Shown here piece after piece: positions 2,632 through 49,835 of a stretch of DNA of 50,371 nt. A program made the translations under genes and the position numbers. Source of the DNA: Candidatus Acetocimmeria pyornia (GTDB lineage: Bacteria > Bacillota > Sulfobacillia > UBA3575); assembly GCA_004367365.1 (NCBI GenBank), contig SESX01000001.1:1-50371 (forward strand), in the 5' to 3' direction. A model generated the notes under the pieces. It made no database searches, had not been told where the DNA came from, and saw nothing but the letters and a program-made list of their open reading frames with translations. The first letter of the stretch is position 1; every line of letters starts with the position of its first letter.

Positions 2632-2878
2632 GAACCTTGTTGGAAAAGTACACGTAAGACCCAGGCCAATTCAGCAGGACCTCCAAATACCGGAAGGACA
2701 AGCACTCAAGACCGAACCTAACTATAGATACACCACTTGCCGAGCTTGCGACGTACGGTACGTCAAACAGTTTAGGTTTCATACCCCCTGACCACCTTGC
2801 GACAACAGCGGAGGTAATCACAAATCAACCGTAGAATACAAGACACAGGAAGGGGTTTCCAAAGGAAAGTGAGACCTG

Positions 2879-4102
2879 TTGCACACCAAAGTCCCAAAGC
2901 AGATTCTGGGCGTCGCCCTAGTAACAGCCATATGTCTGGTCGGAGATTCAATGCTTTACATTACTCTGCCTGTTCTCTGGGGGGATGTCGGCCTGAAATC
3001 CGTCTGGCAGGTTGGGGTCTTGCTGTCCCTGAACCGCTTTATCAGGCTACCGGCCAACCCCCTTGTGGGGATTGTTTACCAGAAGATACCCTTACGAACA
3101 GGATTGTTTCTCGCCGTTTCGGCCGCAGCAATTTCGACTATCGGGTACGGAATTGCCGATAGTTTTGTAGTTTGGATTTTGCTCCGCAGCCTTTGGGGGA
3201 TCGGTTGGAGTTTTCTGCAGATTGGGAGCTACCTGGTCGTTGTTGAGTTTTCTGAAGATGCCAGCCGTGGAAAAGCCATGGGGACTTATAACGGCCTCTA
3301 CAGGTTAGGCAGTCTGTTTGGTATGACCGCAGGGCCGTTCCTGGTTCACTGGTTTGGCCTTGAGAAGACCTCCATTTTTTTGGGATTGCTCAGCTTAAGT
3401 CTAGGCATAATCTTGGTAACGGTGCTGCTCCCTCGGCTTGACTCGGCCAGAGGCGAGGTGATGACCAAAAGGGAACAGGCTTGGCCCATACTGATAAAGG
3501 AGAACTTTTTGATTGTTGCTTCCGGGTTTATCATCGGTACGTGTTTTCGGGGTGTTATCAATTCCAGCCTCAGCTATACCATTCTCACTTACTTTACCGA
3601 TCAGATTGTTCTCTTTGGGTTAGCCTTCACTGCTGCCGGGCTGGCCGGTCTTTTGTTGGGGCTTCGTTGGGCTTGGGAGCCTTTCTTGGCCGTCTACATG
3701 GGACACTGGTCAGATACCGCAGGGAGAATCCCCCTGCTAAAGCTTTCCCTCTTGGTGGGTTCCATGGGCTTTACACTGCTGGCCTTCAGTTTACCCAAGG
3801 AAATCTGGATCTTGTCGGTCCTGGTTCTGCTGTTTTCGGCGACATCCCTGACCACCCTTGCTGATACCTTGCTTTCTGACTCTGCTGCCACTCTTTCAGC
3901 ACCAAGGGCGTATCTTGTGGCCACGTACTCAATGGCAGCGGATTTTGGGGCCGCAGTGGGTCCCATGCTTGCCTATTTTCTCTTGGATAAACCGCAGGGA
4001 ATTATGCTCACATACCTGAGCTGTGCATTGGTCCTGGCGGCCTTGATCCCAGCCTGGTCAAAGGTGAGAAGGAGGTGGGGAACCCCATTCTTTCAGGGAT
4101 AG
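2879..4102 (+). CDS. MFS transporter
   Basis: 407 aa with about 12 hydrophobic segments. MFS-like loop motifs (GRLADRFG-type region: LNRFIRLPANPLVG). Confidence 0.8.
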   Translation: MHTKVPKQILGVALVTAICLVGDSMLYITLPVLWGDVGLKSVWQVGVLLSLNRFIRLPANPLVGIVYQKIPLRTGLFLAVSAAAISTIGYGIADSFVVWILLRSLWGIGWSFLQIGSYLVVVEFSEDASRGKAMGTYNGLYRLGSLFGMTAGPFLVHWFGLEKTSIFLGLLSLSLGIILVTVLLPRLDSARGEVMTKREQAWPILIKENFLIVASGFIIGTCFRGVINSSLSYTILTYFTDQIVLFGLAFTAAGLAGLLLGLRWAWEPFLAVYMGHWSDTAGRIPLLKLSLLVGSMGFTLLAFSLPKEIWILSVLVLLFSATSLTTLADTLLSDSAATLSAPRAYLVATYSMAADFGAAVGPMLAYFLLDKPQGIMLTYLSCALVLAALIPAWSKVRRRWGTPFFQG

Positions 4103-4274
4103 CTGCCACCTGAGAAAGAAAGGCAGAAAAACCGGGAGGAGGTTCTTGCCATGTAAGGAAAAATTAAAGCGCGGATGTTGGGAGTGCCCCAATTTGAGTT
4201 AACATAAAAGGTAAAAGCGTGTATGCAAGGAACAGGTGGTATTATCTGGCTTGGCATTTAGGTAAAAGTAACTA

Positions 4275-4460
4275 GGGCTCTATGCCCCCTTGTGGTGCGG
4301 CGGCACCACGAAGGATGAAAATTGGAAGCGGTATTTCGCAAAGGTTGTACGCCAGGGGTCCTCAGGAACGAGACGCTCCGGCCGCAGGCCCGGAGGGCCG
4401 AGGAATAAGGAAGGCGAGTGGAGGTGCACCTCTGGCGAGGCAGATGGTGGCATTTTCGTA
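4275..4460 (-). repeat. Interspersed structured repeat, type A unit (consensus orientation on the minus strand)
   Basis: The reverse complement aligns over nearly its full length with 25379-25568 and 49573-49772. It starts TACGAAAATGCCAC and ends ATTTTCATCCTTCGTGGTGCCGCCGCACC..GGGGGCATAGAGCCC. Confidence 0.9.
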
Positions 4461-5462: not shown

Positions 5463-5632
5463 TTACCCTGGCACCAACCGGTTCACTTTCCTGTGGGTTG
5501 CAAGACTGCCGGGTGTCCTTACCAGTCCATCATTAATGGTTACACCGAGGGAAACGCCTGATACTTCTTGCGGGGGTCGCCACAGCGACACTACCTAATA
5601 CAATGAGCCTGAAATTTAGGGGAGGTTCCTTG

Positions 5633-6919
5633 ATGCCAGATCGTGCCAAGAAGCAGGCCAGATTACTCCTTGAAGGGTTTACTGCCGGTAAGTATGTTTT
5701 TGGATTAAACGTTCTGGACCAGGTCGGTTCAGTGGCATGTCAACTCGGGGATAAGGCACTGATCATTGCCAATCCGAGCCCTTGGCTAAAACCCATCGTC
5801 GACCGTGTCAGGGATTCGCTTAAAGAAAACGGTGTGGAGATAGTTGGGGGAGGGGCCCTACCTGGTGCCAGACCTAATACCCCTAGAGAAGACGTGTACC
5901 GTATTGAAACCTACATACTCCACCATGAACCTGATTTCCTTATTGCATTAGGGGCGGGAAGCACCATTGATGCGGTTAAAGCTGCCAATGTTCTTGCCAC
6001 CCTGGGAACATACAGTGCTGAGCTGGACACCTATTTTGGGACCGGGCAGGTTACCAAGGTGCTGCAAGCAACAGGCAAAAAGCTCTTTCCTCTGCTGGCG
6101 ATAGAAACTGCCGCAAGCTCTGGTGCCCACTTGACCAAGTACAGTAATGTCACCGACCCCGTGGTCGGCCAGAAGAAGCTCATCGTTGATGATGCCGTTG
6201 TTCCTAACCGTGCCGTGTTTGACTACACTGTTACCTATCATATGCCTAGGTCCCTCACTCTTGATGGTGCCTTTGATGGGATTGCGCATTGTTTAGAGGT
6301 CTTTTATGGGGCTACTGAAGACAAGTTCGACAGGATCAAGAATATTGCTCTCACAGGAATTGAATTGATTGTTAACTACACGGAAAGGGTTATTGAAGAC
6401 CCCAGGGATGGTGAAGCACGAGAAGCCCTCGGTCTCGGTACCGACTTGGGGGGATATGCCATTATGGTGGGAGGGACCAACGGGGCTCATCTAACCAGCT
6501 TTTCTCTCGTCGATATCACCAGTCACGGCAGGGCGTGTGCCATTATGAACCCGTACTATACGGTGTTTTTTGCTCCGGCGATTCAGAGACAGCTGAAATT
6601 GGTGGCTGAAATATTGAGAAGGGTAGGACTCACGAGCATTGACCCGGATCAGGTTCACGGCCGGGAACTGGGGATCGAGGTGGCCCGGGCCATGCAGGAG
6701 CTGGCCAAAAGGGTAGGGTTTCCCACGACACTTGCCGATGTACCTGGGTTTTCTCAACGGCATCTTGAAAGGGCATTGGCTGCGGCGAAGGATCCACAGC
6801 TGGAATCAAAGCTCAAGAACATGCCCGTACCGCTGGATGCCTCCCTGGTTGATAAGTATATGGCACCGATTCTCCATGCAGCGGCAAGTGGGGACTTCGG
6901 GATCATTAAGAACATGTAG
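5633..6919 (+). CDS. Iron-containing (group III) alcohol dehydrogenase family protein
   Basis: GGGSTIDAVKA-like motif (GAGSTIDAVKAA) and a conserved His cluster (GIAHCLE, GAHLTS). ATG at 5633 lies 7 nt after an AGGGGAGG RBS. Confidence 0.85.
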   Translation: MPDRAKKQARLLLEGFTAGKYVFGLNVLDQVGSVACQLGDKALIIANPSPWLKPIVDRVRDSLKENGVEIVGGGALPGARPNTPREDVYRIETYILHHEPDFLIALGAGSTIDAVKAANVLATLGTYSAELDTYFGTGQVTKVLQATGKKLFPLLAIETAASSGAHLTKYSNVTDPVVGQKKLIVDDAVVPNRAVFDYTVTYHMPRSLTLDGAFDGIAHCLEVFYGATEDKFDRIKNIALTGIELIVNYTERVIEDPRDGEAREALGLGTDLGGYAIMVGGTNGAHLTSFSLVDITSHGRACAIMNPYYTVFFAPAIQRQLKLVAEILRRVGLTSIDPDQVHGRELGIEVARAMQELAKRVGFPTTLADVPGFSQRHLERALAAAKDPQLESKLKNMPVPLDASLVDKYMAPILHAAASGDFGIIKNM

Positions 6920-7171
6920 ACCGCAACAAGCGGTGGTACCACGAAAGATGAAAATCGGCAACAAACCGGTCGGTACAGTCAGCATCATGGGTACCAACGA
7001 ACGTGAAGGCGCGGGCTTCCTGAATGGCCATCAGCGAACAAGTTCAGGAACCGCAGGCAGCGGAGGACCAACCTCAGCCACCGTAGGGCGAGTTTGGCTG
7101 CTGCCCTGGGCCGGCCGAGGTCCATGACAGACGCTCCGAAGGAAGGTCAGCGCCGTCGGGACATTTTCGTA
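6917..7171 (-). repeat. Interspersed structured repeat, composite unit (type B 5' module plus type A-like 3' module)
   Basis: The reverse complement starts TACGAAAATGTCCCGACGGCGCTGACCTTCCTTCGGAGCGTC and ends GATTTTCATCTTTCGTGGTACCACCGCTTGTTGCGGTCTAC. The terminal CTA is the complement of the ADH stop codon TAG (6917-6919). Confidence 0.8.
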
Positions 7172-7269
7172 GAGTTGGAGGGCAACACCCTGGGGGGGTA
7201 GGTCTTGGGGGAGTCGGCACTAAGAGATTGCAGACCGCCGAAGAGGACTGAACGAAGAGGGTAGGGGAC

Positions 7270-15470: not shown

Positions 15471-15687
15471 AGGGTAAGGACAAAGACAGAAAAGAGTAGG
15501 GAAAAGTGGGGGAGAAGGGTCCGGTCCCTGCCACCTGCCTGCAGGCGACCACCCTTCCATCCCACGGGAGAACCAAACTGGTTTTCTTTTCTAAATGGTT
15601 TTCTCTTCTCAGGAGGAGCTTTCACTTCGGCCGTCGGAATATATTGAGAGGCGATGACGCATACGGCATGTCATAACCGGTTTTCCT

Positions 15688-16311
15688 CTAATGTATACGC
15701 CGTAGGAGCCCAATAACCTTACCCAGGATCTTCACGTTCCTTGCCAGGATCGGCTCCATGAACTGGTTTTCGGGTACCAGTCGTACATGGTCTTTCTCCC
15801 TGTAAAACCTCTTCACCGTCACCTCATCTTCTAAGAGCGCCACCACAATATCCCCGTTCTCTGCTGTTTCCTGTTGGCGGACCACGACGTAATCCCCTTC
15901 AAGGATCCCTGCCCCGATCATACTATCCCCGCGTACAGAAAGAAGAAAAGCCTTACCTGTACCAACAAAATCAACCGGGAGAGGGATCGTGTCTTCAATG
16001 TTTTCAACAGCCAGGATCGGCTCGCCCGCCGTTACTTGGCCCACCAGGGGCACTTCAACGGTAGGTTTACGGGCTGTTCGAAAGTCAGGGTCGAGAACCT
16101 CAATTGCTCTCGGCTTTGTCGGGTCGCGCCTGATATAGCCCTTGCCTTCTAGGCTTTGCAGGTGGCCGTGAACGGTCGAACTGGAACTCAAACCAACAGC
16201 CTGCCCGATTTCACGTACTGACGGGGGATACCCTTTTCTCCGGATCTCGTCCTTGATAAACTCCAGGATTTGCCTCTGCCGGACGGTAAGCTTCTCCGCC
16301 ATTACCCGCAC
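15688..16311 (-). CDS. lexA: LexA repressor
   Basis: Winged-helix N-terminus ([22 protein letters not shown]). Cleavage and S24 peptidase motifs (VAGEP, GDSM, VKR). Confidence 0.95.
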
Positions 16312-20777: not shown

Positions 20778-21021
20778 CACTAGTCAGAAAATACTGGTTC
20801 TACCCTAGATTTTCATCCTTCGTGGTGTCGCCGCACCGCGGCATGGAGCACTACTACAAAAGTGTAGCAACGGCGCCGGCCTTCCTTCGCGGCGTCACGC
20901 TTACCGTATAGTTGTCATGAACCTCGGCGACTCCGGGCCGCAGCAACAAACTCCCCTCTGGGCTCACAAAGGTCGGTACGGTCGCCGCACCGCGGGCGGC
21001 ATGGAGTACTCATCGAAATGG
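20778..21021 (+). repeat. Interspersed structured repeat locus: terminal-hairpin module plus a type B unit (20852-21009)
   Basis: GATTTTCATCCTTCGTGGTGTCGCCGCACCGCGGCATGGAGCAC is followed directly by TACTACAAAAGTG..AACGGCGCCGGCCTTCCTTCGCGGCGTCAC.., ending GGTCGCCGCACCGCGGGCGGCATGGAGTAC. Confidence 0.85.
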
Positions 21022-24130: not shown

Positions 24131-24347
24131 CCGACGAAAAGCCTGCCCTCTCCGCAGCAACCTTTACGCAATATGGATCAAATGCCCTCCAATTTTCAGG
24201 GTTCATAGTGCGGCCACCTGCAGCGGTACGCGCAGCTGCTACCAAAATGCCCCAACGGCGCCGGCCTTCCTTCGCGGCGTCACCCTCACCGATCCTCCGT
24301 GGTGCCGCCGCACCGCAGGGCGGCATGGGGCACTACTTTGAAATTCG
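24131..24347 (+). repeat. Interspersed structured repeat locus: a degenerate type A 3' module plus a short type B unit (24239-24333)
   Basis: TACCAAAATGCCCCAACGGCGCCGGCCTTCCTTCGCGGCGTCAC..GATCCTCCGTGGTGCCGCC-gcaccgcag-GGCGGCATGGGGCAC, preceded by GCAACCTTTACGCAATA..AATTTTCAGGGTTCATAGTGCGGCC. Confidence 0.85.
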
Positions 24348-25306: not shown

Positions 25307-25340
25307 CCAGGAGCAACCTAGGCCTGGTTTTTTTGTTTTT
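25307..25340 (+). terminator. Rho-independent terminator after the SASP gene
   Basis: CCAGG-11 nt-CCTGG followed by TTTTTTTGTTTTT. Confidence 0.6.
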
Positions 25341-25378
25341 GCAGCAAGCCGACACCCGGAGCCCATCAAGGGAACAAC

Positions 25379-25568
25379 CACGAAAATGCCACTATCTGCT
25401 TCGCCAGGGTTGTTCCTCCACTCGCCTTCCTTATTCCTCGGCCCTCCGGGCCTGCGGCATAACCGGTCTCGTTTCCGGAGCACCCCTGGCGTGTGCAACC
25501 TTCACGAAATACCACTTCCAAGTTTTCATGCTTCGTGGTGCCGCCGCACCGCAAGACGGCATGGGCAC
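25379..25568 (+). repeat. Interspersed structured repeat, type A unit (reference copy)
   Basis: CACGAAAATGCCACTATC...CGCCAGGG...CCTCCACTCGCCTTCCTTATTCCTCGGCCCTCCGGGCC...CCCTGGCG...TTTTCATGCTTCGTGGTGCCGCCGCACCGCAAGACGGCATGGGCAC. Confidence 0.9.
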
Positions 25569-25677
25569 TAGCCCCCTTCTCTTTCTCCAGGGGAACAGAG
25601 GTTCATTAAAGCAGGGAGTATGCCCCCTGTTTAACACGGGAATAATACGAGAGGATCTCTTTGGGAGGTGAGGAACT

Positions 25678-41476: not shown

Positions 41477-41971
41477 TCAGAAACCACCTCCAACCAAGAG
41501 CTGAGCCAGAAAACCGGCCAGGGGTGGGAAGATCGAGGTTACCACAACCCGAACCAAGGTGAAACGAGGGCCCATGAGGGCGAGTTCGAAGGACAAGATT
41601 CCGGTATTCCAGAGAGCCCAGCCGGTGATAAAGGAAACTGCCGTCCCCAGGCTGGCCCCGGCCCGAAAAACCGAAGCCATAATGGGAAAAGAAACATACG
41701 GACCTCCGGGAATAAGGGCGCCCGCAAAACTACCCATGAGAATCGCCCTCCAACCGGCATCATCACCAAGCCAGGTTCGGACCAGCTCCGGGGGGATGAG
41801 GACCTCCAGGAACCCAGCGAGCACAAAGGCCGCAAGGAGCAAAGGAAACATTCCGACCAGCATCCGGCCCCCGGTCCTGACACCTTTCCAGTGGAGGTTA
41901 CCCCCCCTGGTGTAGGCGTAAAGAAATAATCCGGTGGCAACCAGGGCCAGGAGAAACGTGATTCCACTCAT
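41477..41971 (-). CDS. Half-size permease subunit (DUF318/YraQ-like), second of a pair
   Basis: 164 aa and hydrophobic. Paralogous to the upstream neighbour (shared GALIPGGPYV..P block). The start overlaps the neighbour's stop. Confidence 0.6.
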   Translation of the reverse strand: MSGITFLLALVATGLFLYAYTRGGNLHWKGVRTGGRMLVGMFPLLLAAFVLAGFLEVLIPPELVRTWLGDDAGWRAILMGSFAGALIPGGPYVSFPIMASVFRAGASLGTAVSFITGWALWNTGILSFELALMGPRFTLVRVVVTSIFPPLAGFLAQLLVGGGF

Positions 41972-42498
41972 GATGATTCTTTCCCCCTCTCCCCAATTAA
42001 CAAGGTGTTGCCGAACAGGACCTGGGCAGCCAGGCCCATCAGCGGGGGGAAAAGAAGGGTTACCAGAAACCTAGTGACGGTGAGCTTAGGTCCAAGAAGG
42101 GCAAATTCCAAGGGCAACCGGCTTACCGCCCACAGGTTCTTAGCTGTTACGAAAGAAATGATGGTACCGATGTCTGCCCCGGCCTTGAGGAAAGAAACGG
42201 CGATGGGGTAATAGACGTAGGGCCCGCCCGGGATTAGGGCTCCAGCCAAGCCTCCAATCAGGATCCCGCGCAGCCCTGATTCCCTGCCCAGCCACCTGGC
42301 AATGGTTTTCTCCGAGATAACCGCCTGGATGAGGCCTGCCACGGTGAAAGCCGCCAGGATCAACAGGGCTACACTGGTCATGATCCCGGCACCTCTGCCT
42401 ATACCAGCCCAGACCAGGGACCAACCACCTTGGATATAGGCTACCACCCCTAGAATGGCAGCTGCGACAGCCAATGCGATGGTTGTCTTCTTCTGCAT
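41968..42498 (-). CDS. Half-size permease subunit (DUF318/YraQ-like), first of a pair
   Basis: 176 aa and hydrophobic, with GLAGALIPGGPYVYYPIA and LFPPL blocks mirrored in 41477-41971. Confidence 0.6.
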   Translation of the reverse strand: MQKKTTIALAVAAAILGVVAYIQGGWSLVWAGIGRGAGIMTSVALLILAAFTVAGLIQAVISEKTIARWLGRESGLRGILIGGLAGALIPGGPYVYYPIAVSFLKAGADIGTIISFVTAKNLWAVSRLPLEFALLGPKLTVTRFLVTLLFPPLMGLAAQVLFGNTLLIGERGKESS

Positions 42499-49502: not shown

Positions 49503-49786
49503 CACTACGAAAACGTCCCAACAGTGCCGGCCTACCCGTGGTGGTGCCGCCTATAGCAGCATAGATGGTTATTACGAAAATGCACTATCCACCTCGCCAG
49601 GGTTGCTCCTCCACTCGCCTTATTCCTCGCTCCTCCGGGGCTGCGGCATAACCGGTCTCGCTCCGGAGCAGCCCGGGCGTGCACCTCATGATACTACCCG
49701 GTCAAGGGGCCGCTGAATACGCGTCCGATTTTCATCCTTCGTGGTGCCGCCGCTGATGGCGGCATGAAGCACTCGTCCGAAAATGG
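49503..49786 (+). repeat. Interspersed structured repeat locus: a short degenerate type B unit (49506-49566) plus a type A unit (49573-49772)
   Basis: TACGAAAACGTCCCAACAGTGCCGGCC..CGTGGTGGTGCCGCC.., then TACGAAAATGCACTATCCACCTCGCCAGGG.., ending GATTTTCATCCTTCGTGGTGCCGCC-gctgat-GGCGGCATGAAGCAC. Confidence 0.85.
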
Positions 49787-49835
49787 CAGTGGTTTGGGCA
49801 GCCTCATGATGAAGGGTGGGAAACGAGCACCTCAG

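What the first reader, a model, noticed from the sequence alone, without database searches (positions are those of the whole stretch)
25379..25568. The repeat unit has conserved secondary-structure potential, with a few compensatory changes
Several pairings recur across copies. (1) A terminal hairpin TGCCGCC/GGCGGCA has different loops: 9 nt at 24303-24325 and 6 nt at 49745-49764. A differently sequenced but analogous hairpin, ACCGC-aacaa-GCGGT, is at 6920-6934. A G:U-containing version is at 20826-20843. (2) In type A, CGCCAGGG pairs with CCCTGGCG about 100 nt downstream; this is present with one mismatch or bulge in the other two copies. (3) In type A, GGCCC-tcc-GGGCC in copies 1 and 5 becomes GCTCC-tcc-GGGGC in copy 6, a G:C to C:G swap plus C:G to U:G. 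(4) In type B, the hairpin GCGCCG-(g)CCTTCCTTcg-CGGCGT at 20871-20893 and 24259-24281 becomes GCGCTG...AGCGT in the 6917-7171 copy, a C:G to U:A double change. Its loop always displays CCUUCCUU, which is anti-Shine-Dalgarno-like. (5) The 5' ACGAAAAT can pair with the 3' ATTTTCAT as a closing stem or terminal inverted repeat. Structure that persists through sequence change points to function at the RNA or single-stranded DNA level, for example an sRNA, an RNA sponge for SD or anti-SD sequences, or a transposase or recombinase recognition hairpin.
Basis: partly seen in the sequence, partly recalled or inferred. Interest (0 to 1): 0.7.

Follow-up and report, generated by a model that had tools for sequence, protein, structure and literature searches.

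The report
Transposase-less IS110 hitchhiker repeats
The structured intergenic repeats are most likely transposase-less copies that keep the two end sequences (one a hairpin) of an IS110-family "bridge-RNA" insertion sequence living in the same genome, so the conserved hairpin is a mobile-element end and not a regulatory RNA.

Summary
The terminal hairpin is real. In 132 copies from several phyla its stem sequence changes freely but stays paired (94.6% paired, 181 double changes against 53 in shuffles). The internal helices of type A and type B are real inverted repeats. Their few compensatory changes are matched by as many mismatches and are not significant.

The shared "3' module" (TTTTCATnCTTCGTGGTG-hairpin-CATG) is the first ~45 nt of the left end of an IS110-family insertion sequence, read on the opposite strand. 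ACGAAAAT is the last part of its right end. One IS found at eight or more different sites carries both ends inside the element. The window's own organism has such an IS on another contig, sitting in one array with a type A and a type B body in the same slot.

The window units therefore look like non-autonomous IS110 derivatives: IS ends plus a structured ~130-290 nt body replacing bridge RNA and transposase, bounded by a CTA/TAG core repeat. Mobilisation in trans is inferred, and what the bodies do is unknown. The closest precedent is the ssr9 module of ISPpu9. The sRNA and anti-Shine-Dalgarno sponge ideas found no support.

The parts
25381..25569 (+). Solitary type A unit, the one in the finding. 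In order it contains the right-end terminus CGAAAAT, a body of about 140 nt, and the left-end terminus TTTTCATGCTTCGTGGTG-hairpin-CATGGGCA. It is flanked by cca (25378-25380) and CTA (25570-25572).
   Evidence: (CM hit 25509-25575, E 5e-7). Boundaries were set by analogy.
25402..25491 (+). Type A body core. The long-range helix pairs 25402-25416 with 25477-25491. It encloses a pyrimidine-rich unpaired stretch and the hairpin GGCCC-tcc-GGGCC (25440-25452).
25539..25561 (+). Terminal hairpin P2 of the module (TG CCGCC...GACGG CA).
4272..4458 (-). Solitary type A unit, 85% identical to the 25381 unit, flanked on both sides by CTA on its own strand. The module lies at 4269-4335.
   Evidence: E 1.6e-6.
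6920..7169 (-). Solitary long type B unit. Hairpin ACCGC-aacaa-GCGGT is at 6920-6934, the module variant at 6923-6968, the body runs to 7162, and ATTTTCG is at 7163-7169 on the + strand. TAG flanks it on both sides of the + strand. The left TAG (6917-6919) is also the stop codon of the Fe-alcohol dehydrogenase gene.
   Evidence: (E 0.012).
20796..21012 (+). Array. It contains a module (TTTTCAT at 20810, hairpin 20826-20843), a truncated type B body with the CCTTCCTT-loop hairpin (about 20869-20895), and a degenerate second hairpin at about 20982-21001 followed by CATGGAGTAC.
   Evidence: E 2e-13.
24192..24340 (+). Array. It contains a degenerate module (24192-24235), a short type B remnant with the CCTTCCTT-loop hairpin (about 24254-24284), and a module whose hairpin is at 24303-24325.
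   Evidence: E 1.5e-4.
49535..49790 (+). Array. It contains a degenerate module (49535-49566), the long type A unit (ACGAAAAT at 49574, body to 49727), and a module (TTTTCAT at 49729, hairpin 49745-49764) followed by another GAAAAT at 49781.
   Evidence: E 3.9e-11.

Best explanation
The type A and type B repeats are non-autonomous (transposase-less, MITE-like) derivatives of an IS110-family insertion sequence.

Read on the IS's coding strand, each unit has this layout: core TAG | (short tail, CATG) - variable hairpin - CACCACGAAGnATGAAAA - body - ATTTTCG | core TAG. The left ~45 nt and the right ~7-13 nt are the same termini that bound complete IS110 copies. In those copies the space between the termini holds a ~150-220 nt bridge-RNA region and a ~405 aa DEDD/Transposase_20 recombinase. 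In the window units it holds a structured non-coding body instead, about 130-150 nt for type A and up to 290 nt for type B.

A complete module (ATTTTC...hairpin...ATGAAAA) is the right-end/left-end junction between two adjacent units, or that of a circularised element.

Inferred mechanism: the recombinase and bridge RNA of the resident autonomous IS recognise these termini as donor ends. They excise the units as circles and insert them at (T)AG-core targets. Because the resident bridge RNA's left-target guide (AUAGUAG-UG) is nearly the same word as its left-donor guide (GUAGUAG), new insertions tend to land next to an existing unit's right end. That would build the tandem arrays.

The hairpin is kept as a structure because it belongs to the element's end. 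By analogy it could be the inverted repeat of an A box, the 5' stem-loop of the bridge RNA, or a DNA hairpin that helps recombination.

Shown here: shared termini, element boundaries, co-residence with the IS, hairpin covariation, and guide words that match the flanks and ends. Inferred: mobilisation in trans, and any function of the bodies.
For: 1. Boundaries. One IS with an identical 407-aa transposase, seen at 8 or more different sites (L155-L164), always carries (AG)TAG|ACACC-CATG-hairpin-CACCAGCGGAAGGATGAAAA... on the left and ...TTTTCAGGG-TAG| on the right. Beyond those points the flanks are unrelated genes.

2. Association with the transposase. In 14 of the sampled metagenome loci, an IS110 transposase starts 150-260 nt from the module, on the opposite strand. 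Pfam assigns PF01548 and PF02371, with E values of 1e-37 and 4e-39 for the first domain. Of the 63 informative modules, 49 have at least 1.5 kb of upstream sequence and no transposase.

3. Same genome. The window is 100% identical to GCA_002375925.1 contig DFNE01000039. Contig DFNE01000001 of that assembly carries the IS between grpE and dnaK. The order there is type B body | junction module | type A body | junction module | IS | junction module, so the bodies and the IS occupy the same slot.

4. Guide words in the bridge-RNA region track the DNA. Words of 7-10 nt identical to the left flank/left-end junction occur in 10 of 13 ISs, and each word is different. Seven-nt words identical to the last bases of the right end occur in 5 of 5 ISs where it could be checked. 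In total 309 nt matched, against a mean of 98 and a maximum of 195 in 200 shuffles. This fits the published rule that LTG and LDG pair with the bottom strand (PMC11208158).

5. Unit ends. The units at 4272-4458 and 6920-7169 are flanked by CTA...CTA, and the unit at 25381-25569 by CCA...CTA. This is like the TAG core and the AG core of ISPpu9 (PMC12288879).

6. Spread as units. Type A and type B bodies with the same ends recur at different loci, at 66-94% identity overall (mostly 76-94%; the long window type B copy is the most diverged), in the window and in marine-sediment relatives.

7. The hairpin is conserved as structure, not as sequence.

8. Precedent. The A'-ssr9-B' modules of ISPpu9 form circles using the IS110 transposase (PMC12288879).
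Against: - The bodies show no detectable homology to the IS left end or bridge-RNA region (nhmmer found nothing below E = 4). They are therefore not simple internal-deletion derivatives, and their origin is unknown.
- The interior-proximal sequences just inside the termini differ between the IS and the units.
- The resident bridge RNA's left-target guide matches the flanks of the solitary window units poorly, apart from TAG. Its left-donor guide matches the units' right-end words in 4 to 7 of 7 positions.
- No right-donor guide was identified.
- No empty-site/filled-site pair and no circle junction was seen, so mobility is inferred from copy number and boundaries alone.
- The core repeat is only 3 nt, and I placed the boundaries after the fact.
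- Only one autonomous copy was found in this draft genome.
Confidence: 0.68

Rival explanations
1. Host REP-like target. On this reading the module is a repetitive extragenic palindrome of the host genome that IS110 elements merely insert into, as IS621 and ISPpu10 do with REPs. The bodies are lineage-specific expansions of its small AT stem.
For: IS110 elements are known to target REPs, and target hairpins are known to help (PMC11208160; 10.64898/2026.03.19.712850). Thirteen modules have GAAAAT only 3-8 nt upstream of TTTTCAT, which looks like an empty site. This was my working model until.
Against: The same IS at eight or more unrelated sites carries the hairpin, the conserved 18-mer and ATTTTC plus a 7-nt word inside its shared sequence, with unrelated flanks immediately outside. 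REPs are usually species-specific, whereas this motif is nearly identical across Acidobacteria, Bacillota and Desulfobacterota. That is expected if it travels with an IS. No RAYT-like gene recurs near the modules.
Confidence: 0.08
2. In-situ wreckage. The units are decayed remnants of full IS110 copies, each having lost its interior by deletion or replacement where it sits, and none has ever moved as a short unit.
For: The termini are those of the IS. Cargo-less minimal units exist with only 4-8 nt between the two termini. A comparable deletion remnant is reported for ISPpu9 (PMC12288879).
Against: The same two body types, with the same boundaries, recur at many loci and in at least two organisms at 66-94% identity. 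The bodies are unrelated to the IS interior. Independent deletions would not produce the same foreign insert repeatedly.
Confidence: 0.12
3. Structured RNA gene family. The repeats encode an sRNA, for example a sponge presenting CCUUCCUU to Shine-Dalgarno sequences or a regulator of the IS like Ssr9/Asr9, and the helices are RNA structure.
For: The + strand folds better than shuffles (z = -3.40, against -1.80 for the - strand). Conserved G-U pairs lie on the + strand in type B. G-U outnumbers A-C 25 to 11 in the hairpin. Pyrimidine-rich stretches stay unpaired. Cargo of ISPpu9 is an sRNA (PMC12288879).
Against: No Rfam match at E<=10. No promoter-like or terminator-like site in the unit. Orientation to flanking genes is mixed in the window and in 98 intergenic modules. 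Covariation in the bodies is not significant. The CCUUCCUU stretch is not conserved among relatives. There are no expression data.
Confidence: 0.1

Closest known systems
ISPpu9 A'-ssr9-B' modules of Pseudomonas putida KT2440 (IS110 family; Pares-Guillen et al. 2025, PMC12288879)
   Same: Both are short transposase-less units bounded by the same end boxes as the autonomous IS110 element. The left box contains an inverted repeat and the right box is short. Both carry a non-coding cargo, occur in tandem with the IS and also as solitary copies, and have an (A)G core at both ends.
   Different: The ISPpu9 modules are in a different phylum, and I could not compare the sequences because the boxes are not given in the paper's text. 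ssr9 is a demonstrated sRNA whose circles were detected, whereas here neither transcription nor circles are shown. Here there are at least two unrelated cargo types, many copies (6 per 50 kb), and the same end motif in several phyla.
IS621 and ISPpu10 bridge-RNA recombinases (IS110 group; PMC11208160, PMC11208158, 10.64898/2026.03.19.712850)
   Same: The partner IS has the same Pfam domains, a long left end upstream of the recombinase gene, and no terminal inverted repeats. Its left end contains guide-like words identical to the top strand of the left target and of the right-end terminus, consistent with LTG and LDG. A short core is repeated at both ends. A hairpin next to the recombination site matters in ISPpu10.
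   Different: Those studies concern the autonomous element and its REP targets. Here the hairpin lies in the element's own left end, 0-9 nt from the core, and is followed by a strongly conserved 18-mer. That 18-mer is partly repeated inside the bridge-RNA region (GGCACCACGAA). RTG and RDG were not identified.
MITEs and REP/BIME mosaics
   Same: They are intergenic, multicopy and structured, form mosaic arrays, and sit in either orientation relative to genes.
   Different: There are no terminal inverted repeats of a DDE transposon and no fixed-length target-site duplication beyond a 3-nt core. No RAYT was found. The ends are asymmetric, as in IS110.

Membership tests
Non-autonomous derivative of an IS110-family element | Both termini are shared with an autonomous IS110 element present in the same genome. 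| tested here: met
   On L153, a contig of the same assembly as the window, the IS is bounded by ...CATG-hairpin-CACCACGAAGGATGAAAA and by ATTTTCATAGTAG. These are the same termini as the type A and type B units, and the IS sits in one array with them. The window is identical to that assembly.
Non-autonomous derivative of an IS110-family element | The shared termini lie inside the mobile element, not in the host target. | tested here: met
   An identical IS at eight or more sites with unrelated flanks shares its sequence from TAG|ACACCCATG-hairpin... to ...TTTTCAGGG|TAG.
Non-autonomous derivative of an IS110-family element | No recombinase gene in the unit, and multiple dispersed copies. | tested here: met
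   The window holds six units or arrays and has no tblastn hit to the transposase. Of 63 informative modules elsewhere, 49 lack a transposase.
Non-autonomous derivative of an IS110-family element | A short core sequence is repeated at both junctions. | tested here: inconclusive
   CTA...CTA flanks two solitary units and CCA...CTA flanks the third. Right-end cores in relatives have decayed to TAA, TGG and TCG. The repeat is only 3 nt, and I chose the boundaries by analogy.
Non-autonomous derivative of an IS110-family element | Donor ends are matched by the donor-binding guides of the partner's bridge RNA. | tested here: inconclusive
   The resident LDG-like word GUAGUAG matches the units' right-end words in 7, 6, 6, 5, 4 and 4 of 7 positions. 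No RDG was identified.
Non-autonomous derivative of an IS110-family element | Excision as a circle and reinsertion that depend on the recombinase. | not testable with these tools
   This needs PCR or long reads across RE-LE junctions, or a reconstituted assay.
Bridge RNA (IS110 left-end ncRNA) | Homology or architecture of the left-end RNA: two guide loops and the conserved UUGGUGC...GCACCA stem. | tested here: not met
   A profile of 13 left ends found nothing in the window below E = 4, and the only hits on the repeat units (E about 9) fall on the module's GGCACCACGAAG. The type A and type B folds differ from the left-end consensus.
REP / REPIN with RAYT | A species-specific 20-40 nt palindrome, usually in inverted pairs, with a Y1 (RAYT) transposase gene in the genome. 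| tested here: not met
   Copies lie in direct orientation in the arrays. The motif is shared across phyla. The only recurrent neighbouring protein family is IS110. A whole-genome search for a RAYT was not possible.
Curated structured RNA family (Rfam) | A match to a covariance model. | tested here: not met
   There were no hits at gathering threshold in the window or in 16 loci carrying the module, apart from an unrelated tRNA and a pan motif. There were no hits at E<=10 on 25350-25620 or 6890-7200, and none at E<=1 on the L153 array.
Integron attC cassette array | R'' RYYYAAC ... R' GTTRRRY inverted core sites, and an IntI integrase. | tested here: not met
   The module ends are ATTTTCA...TGAAAAT, not the attC consensus, as the sequence shows directly. 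No integrase occurs among the recurrent neighbours.

The most novel reading that the evidence does not exclude
An RNA-guided IS110 recombinase may be assembling cassette-like arrays here. The resident bridge RNA's target guide nearly equals its donor guide, so the element and its transposase-less hitchhikers would insert next to each other's right ends. That would give arrays of structured non-coding cargos (type A, type B, and quite different cargos in Acidobacteria and other phyla) separated by RE-LE junction modules. The cargos would be functional RNAs, either regulators of the IS like Ssr9/Asr9 or extra guide RNAs. The repeat of GGCACCACGAA at the element's end and inside the bridge RNA would be a switch between alternative RNA folds.
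Probability: 0.2. Interest if true: 0.75.

Novelty: new member of a known kind. Interest (0 to 1): 0.5.

Why it matters
IS110 bridge recombinases are under intense study as programmable genome editors, yet natural transposase-less elements that ride on them have been documented for only one system, ISPpu9/ssr9. If this reading holds, there is a widespread clade with a conserved end motif seen in Bacillota, Acidobacteria, Desulfobacterota and many soil, sediment and sludge metagenomes. In that sample the short hitchhikers outnumber the autonomous copies about 3 to 1. They carry diverse structured cargos and form arrays.

That would supply natural minimal donor sites, and a large comparative set for working out which end features, such as the hairpin and the 18-mer, the recombinase needs. 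It also explains a class of intergenic repeats that break assemblies and could be mistaken for sRNAs or riboswitches. For this window, the practical outcome is that the repeats should be annotated as mobile-element derivatives and not as RNA genes.

Tried and rejected
1. Known RNA family. Rfam gave nothing at gathering threshold or at E<=10.

2. Coding. On the reverse strand there is an ATG with a GGAG upstream, and an apparent "MKxxFS" peptide. I rejected this because hairpin lengths vary by 12, 13, 14, 15, 16 and 19 nt and the GAAAAT-TTTTCAT spacer by 4 or 8 nt, so no reading frame is kept.

3. Phage origin. The viral-contig scan gave only chance coding hits in WhiB-like genes.

4. Model 1, the module as a host REP-like target with the crossover in the GAAAAT-N4-TTTTCAT loop. 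I held this and dropped it.

5. Model 3, the hairpin as target with the IS end starting at ACGAAG and a CC core. It fitted L037, L063 and L095 but not L035, L047, L068 or L089, and contradicts it.

6. Bodies as deletion derivatives of the bridge-RNA region. nhmmer was negative.

7. Other motifs checked by eye against the sequence and found not to fit: sigma-54 promoter, CsrA site, CodY box, attC, T-box and IS200/IS605 ends.

8. Covariation of the variable N in CATNC with the 3' tail. None was seen.

9. Cis-regulatory role. Orientation relative to neighbouring genes shows no consistent bias: the upstream neighbour is on the same strand in 24 cases and the opposite strand in 43 (14 of those are the IS itself), and the downstream neighbour is on the same strand in 44 and the opposite strand in 30.

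10. Literature search for the 10-11-mers returned only unrelated primer sequences.

11. A presence/absence difference between L025 and the window at 15669-15688 turned out to be a scaffold gap of Ns.

Full report
**1. What is in the window**

A self-comparison finds six repeat loci, all intergenic between ordinary housekeeping genes: MFS transporter, 2-hydroxyacid dehydrogenase, Fe-ADH, NUDIX, MurJ-like, SASP and DnaE.

- Type A lies at 4272-4459 (-), 25380-25571 (+) and 49574-49778 (+).
- Type B lies at 6917-7172 (-), 20809-20977 (+) and 24192-24337 (+).

All share a "3' module", TTTTCATsCTTCGTGGTG-hairpin-CATGrrGCACT, and each body starts with ACGAAAAT.

The window has no tRNA and no Rfam match. 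This holds at gathering threshold for the whole window and at E<=10 on the type A unit at 25350-25620 and the long type B unit at 6890-7200.

The window is 100% identical to contig DFNE01000039 of assembly GCA_002375925.1. That organism is a spore-former, since it has an SASP gene.

**2. The terminal hairpin is real, and it is much bigger than this genome**

A scan of one genome per species with the module's 5' half found true copies in Acidobacteria gp11 MAGs, several Bacillota MAGs, Ca. Desulfopertinax, Smithellaceae, a deltaproteobacterial MAG and unclassified bacteria.

Viral contigs gave only chance coding hits.

Between the fixed flanks there are 115 different hairpin sequences. At the outer four positions 83% are Watson-Crick pairs, against 33% after shuffling.

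I built a covariance model and aligned 132 copies. In that alignment:
- 94.6% of cells are paired;
- all five variable pairs covary;
- there are 181 double-change cells against 53 +/- 5 in shuffles, and the covariation score is 0.475 against 0.130 (0 of 500 shuffles reach either);
- slid controls give 17-72% paired.

The alignment was fitted to the model, which favours pairing, but the regex-based count does not depend on it. G-U pairs outnumber A-C pairs 25 to 11.

**3. The bodies: real helices, weak covariation**

Ten more type A copies and eight more type B copies came from a marine-sediment relative and other contigs.

- On 13 copies 87.8% of cells pair, against 38-49% when slid.
- Three pairs show double changes.
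- The same three pairs are mismatched in 2-4 copies each.
- 20 of 500 shuffles reach the observed covariation score.
- RNAalifold on all 13 copies gave a weak consensus (-9.9 kcal/mol) with no compensatory pair.

*Type B.* It has the CCTTCCTT-loop hairpin and a ~30-bp imperfect long hairpin.
- 84.3% of cells pair, against 31-48% when slid.
- 65 of 500 shuffles reach the observed score.

The pyrimidine stretches vary among relatives. The 25379-25575 unit folds at z = -3.40 on the + strand and z = -1.80 on the - strand.

**4. The link to IS110**

I clustered ORFs near all modules. One recurrent neighbour emerged, a ~405-aa protein in 14 loci. It carries PF01548 (DEDD_Tnp_IS110) and PF02371.

Its start codon lies 150-260 nt from the module, on the opposite strand. 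Read on the IS coding strand, the order is CATG-hairpin-CACCACGAAGnATGAAAA, then the non-coding left end, then the transposase gene. The stop codon is followed within 3-17 nt by ATTTTC.

The left ends align to a conserved RNA-like core. It has a UUGGUGC...GCACCA stem, a variable hairpin, and the sequence GAGCACGCG.

Within the left end there are two kinds of matching word:
- A 7-10-nt word is identical to the sequence at the left boundary in 10 of 13 ISs. The words all differ: GACAAAGCTG, GACAGAGCTG, AAACCAGGT, TAACAGGT, TTGCAGTG, TAAGGAGTC, GGAGCAATC, TCGTAAAACT and others.
- A 7-nt word is identical to the bases that follow ATTTTC in 5 of 5 ISs: TAGGGAG, AAGGGAG, AAGGCAG, GAAGCAG and GTGACAG.

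Together these account for 309 matched nt, against a mean of 98 and a maximum of 195 in 200 shuffles.

Identity to the top strand is what is published for the left-target and left-donor guides of bridge RNAs (PMC11208158; 10.64898/2026.03.19.712850).

**5. Target or element end?**

At first I read the module as a REP-like host target, with the IS inserted in the GAAAAT-N4-TTTTCAT loop. IS110 elements do target REPs (PMC11208160).

The decisive test was one IS with an identical transposase (P0104) seen at eight or more sites.
- On the left, all copies share sequence from (AG)TAG|ACACC-CATG-hairpin-CACCAGCGGAAGGATGAAAA... onwards.
- On the right, all copies share sequence up to ...GTGTTTTCAGGG-TAG|.
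- The DNA immediately outside differs completely (fliE, a group II intron RT, prephenate dehydratase, MIP, a response regulator).

So the hairpin and the 18-mer are the first ~45 nt of the IS left end, and ATTTTC plus a few bases is the end of the right end. The core is (T)AG, as in ISPpu9, where it is AG (PMC12288879).

This IS's guide words then read canonically. AUGAG-UAG-AC is left target plus core plus the first bases of the left end. AGGG-UAG is left donor plus core.

A "complete module", from ATTTTC through the hairpin to ATGAAAA, is therefore an RE-LE junction between adjacent units.

**6. The same genome has the IS, in the same array as the bodies**

A transposase 100% identical to that of the metagenome contig L142 is encoded on contig DFNE01000001 of GCA_002375925.1, which is the window's organism.

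Between grpE and dnaK the order is: type B body, junction module, type A body, junction module, IS (left end 2807-3000, tnp 3001-4215, right end ~41 nt), junction module. The IS and the two bodies are interchangeable occupants of one slot.

The resident bridge-RNA words AUAGUAG(UG) and GUAGUAG match the junction word ATAGTAG/ATAGAAG-TG on both sides of the IS. This suggests why units pile up in tandem.

In the window, the solitary units at 4272-4458 and 6920-7169 are flanked by CTA...CTA on their own strand. The unit at 25381-25569 is flanked by CCA...CTA. For the 6920 unit, the left TAG on the + strand is also the stop codon of the Fe-ADH gene.

Across all sampled modules with enough flanking sequence, 14 have the transposase and 49 do not.

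**7. Interpretation**

The repeats are best explained as non-autonomous IS110 derivatives: the IS termini plus a foreign, structured, non-coding body. The closest precedent is the A'-ssr9-B' module of ISPpu9, which forms circles using the IS110 transposase and occurs both linked to the IS and alone (PMC12288879).

Several things remain inference or are unknown.
- Whether the window units are still mobilised is not shown.
- The guide matches are partial. The left-donor word matches in 4-7 of 7 positions, and the left-target word matches poorly outside TAG.
- What the bodies are is unknown. They are not homologous to the bridge-RNA region.
- Whether the bodies are transcribed is unknown. No promoter-like site was found, and orientation to genes is mixed.
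- Why the hairpin and the 18-mer are so conserved is unexplained. So is the repetition of GGCACCACGAA inside the bridge RNA. In L085 both copies change together to CCATTGA.

**8. Comparison and verdict**

This is not a new kind of system. It is a new and apparently widespread family within a kind that has one described example.

Its "recombinase recognition hairpin / terminal repeat" option is the one the evidence favours. The sRNA and anti-Shine-Dalgarno sponge option is not supported.

Noticed in passing
window 6917-6919: The TAG stop codon of the Fe-alcohol dehydrogenase gene (5603-6919) lies directly next to the hairpin of the type B unit. It coincides with the TAG core that flanks the unit, so the insertion sits exactly at the end of the gene.
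   Followed up: partly
window 41490-41773 and 42011-42294: A 284-nt direct repeat at 58% identity falls in two adjacent minus-strand ORFs (41477-41971 and 41968-42498). This is probably a tandem gene duplication and is unrelated to the repeats studied.
   Followed up: no
L153 2807-3000, and the left ends of L035-L146: The bridge-RNA region of this IS110 clade contains GGCACCAC(G/A)AA. That is the same sequence as the element's own left terminus just 3' of the hairpin. It forms the 3' arm of a conserved stem with UUGGUGC. In L085 both copies read CCATTGA instead. This may be an alternative-pairing switch, but it is unexplained.
   Followed up: partly
L002, L006, L016, L020, L022, L085 (Acidobacteria gp11); L038, L045, L069, L073, L074 (other metagenomes): The same end motif brackets quite different bodies in other phyla. 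Examples are a 49-nt AGCGGC...GCCGCT hairpin body, ~150-nt CCCCTCC...GGGAGGGG bodies, and ATTCCTGCgcaaGCAGGAAT hairpins. These often form arrays of two or three units.
   Followed up: partly
L159 1-322 and L156 1824-1954: The left flank of one IS copy is the right end of another copy (...TTTTCAGGGTAG|AGTAGACACCCATG...), and a second module follows the right end. So tandem IS or unit arrangements also occur in this unrelated member of the clade.
   Followed up: no
window 15669-15688 versus L025 15913-16271: The public assembly has a 359-N scaffold gap where the window has 20 real bases. The window therefore comes from a better assembly of the same organism.
   Followed up: yes
window 25320-25345: A T-rich stretch follows a short stem (aggcctggtttttttgtttttg) just downstream of the SASP gene and upstream of the type A unit. 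It looks like the terminator of the SASP gene. The simple scan did not call it.
   Followed up: no
L018 5480-5566: There is a pan motif (RF01749, 50.7 bits) about 200 nt from a module copy in a Bacillota MAG. It is probably coincidental.
   Followed up: no
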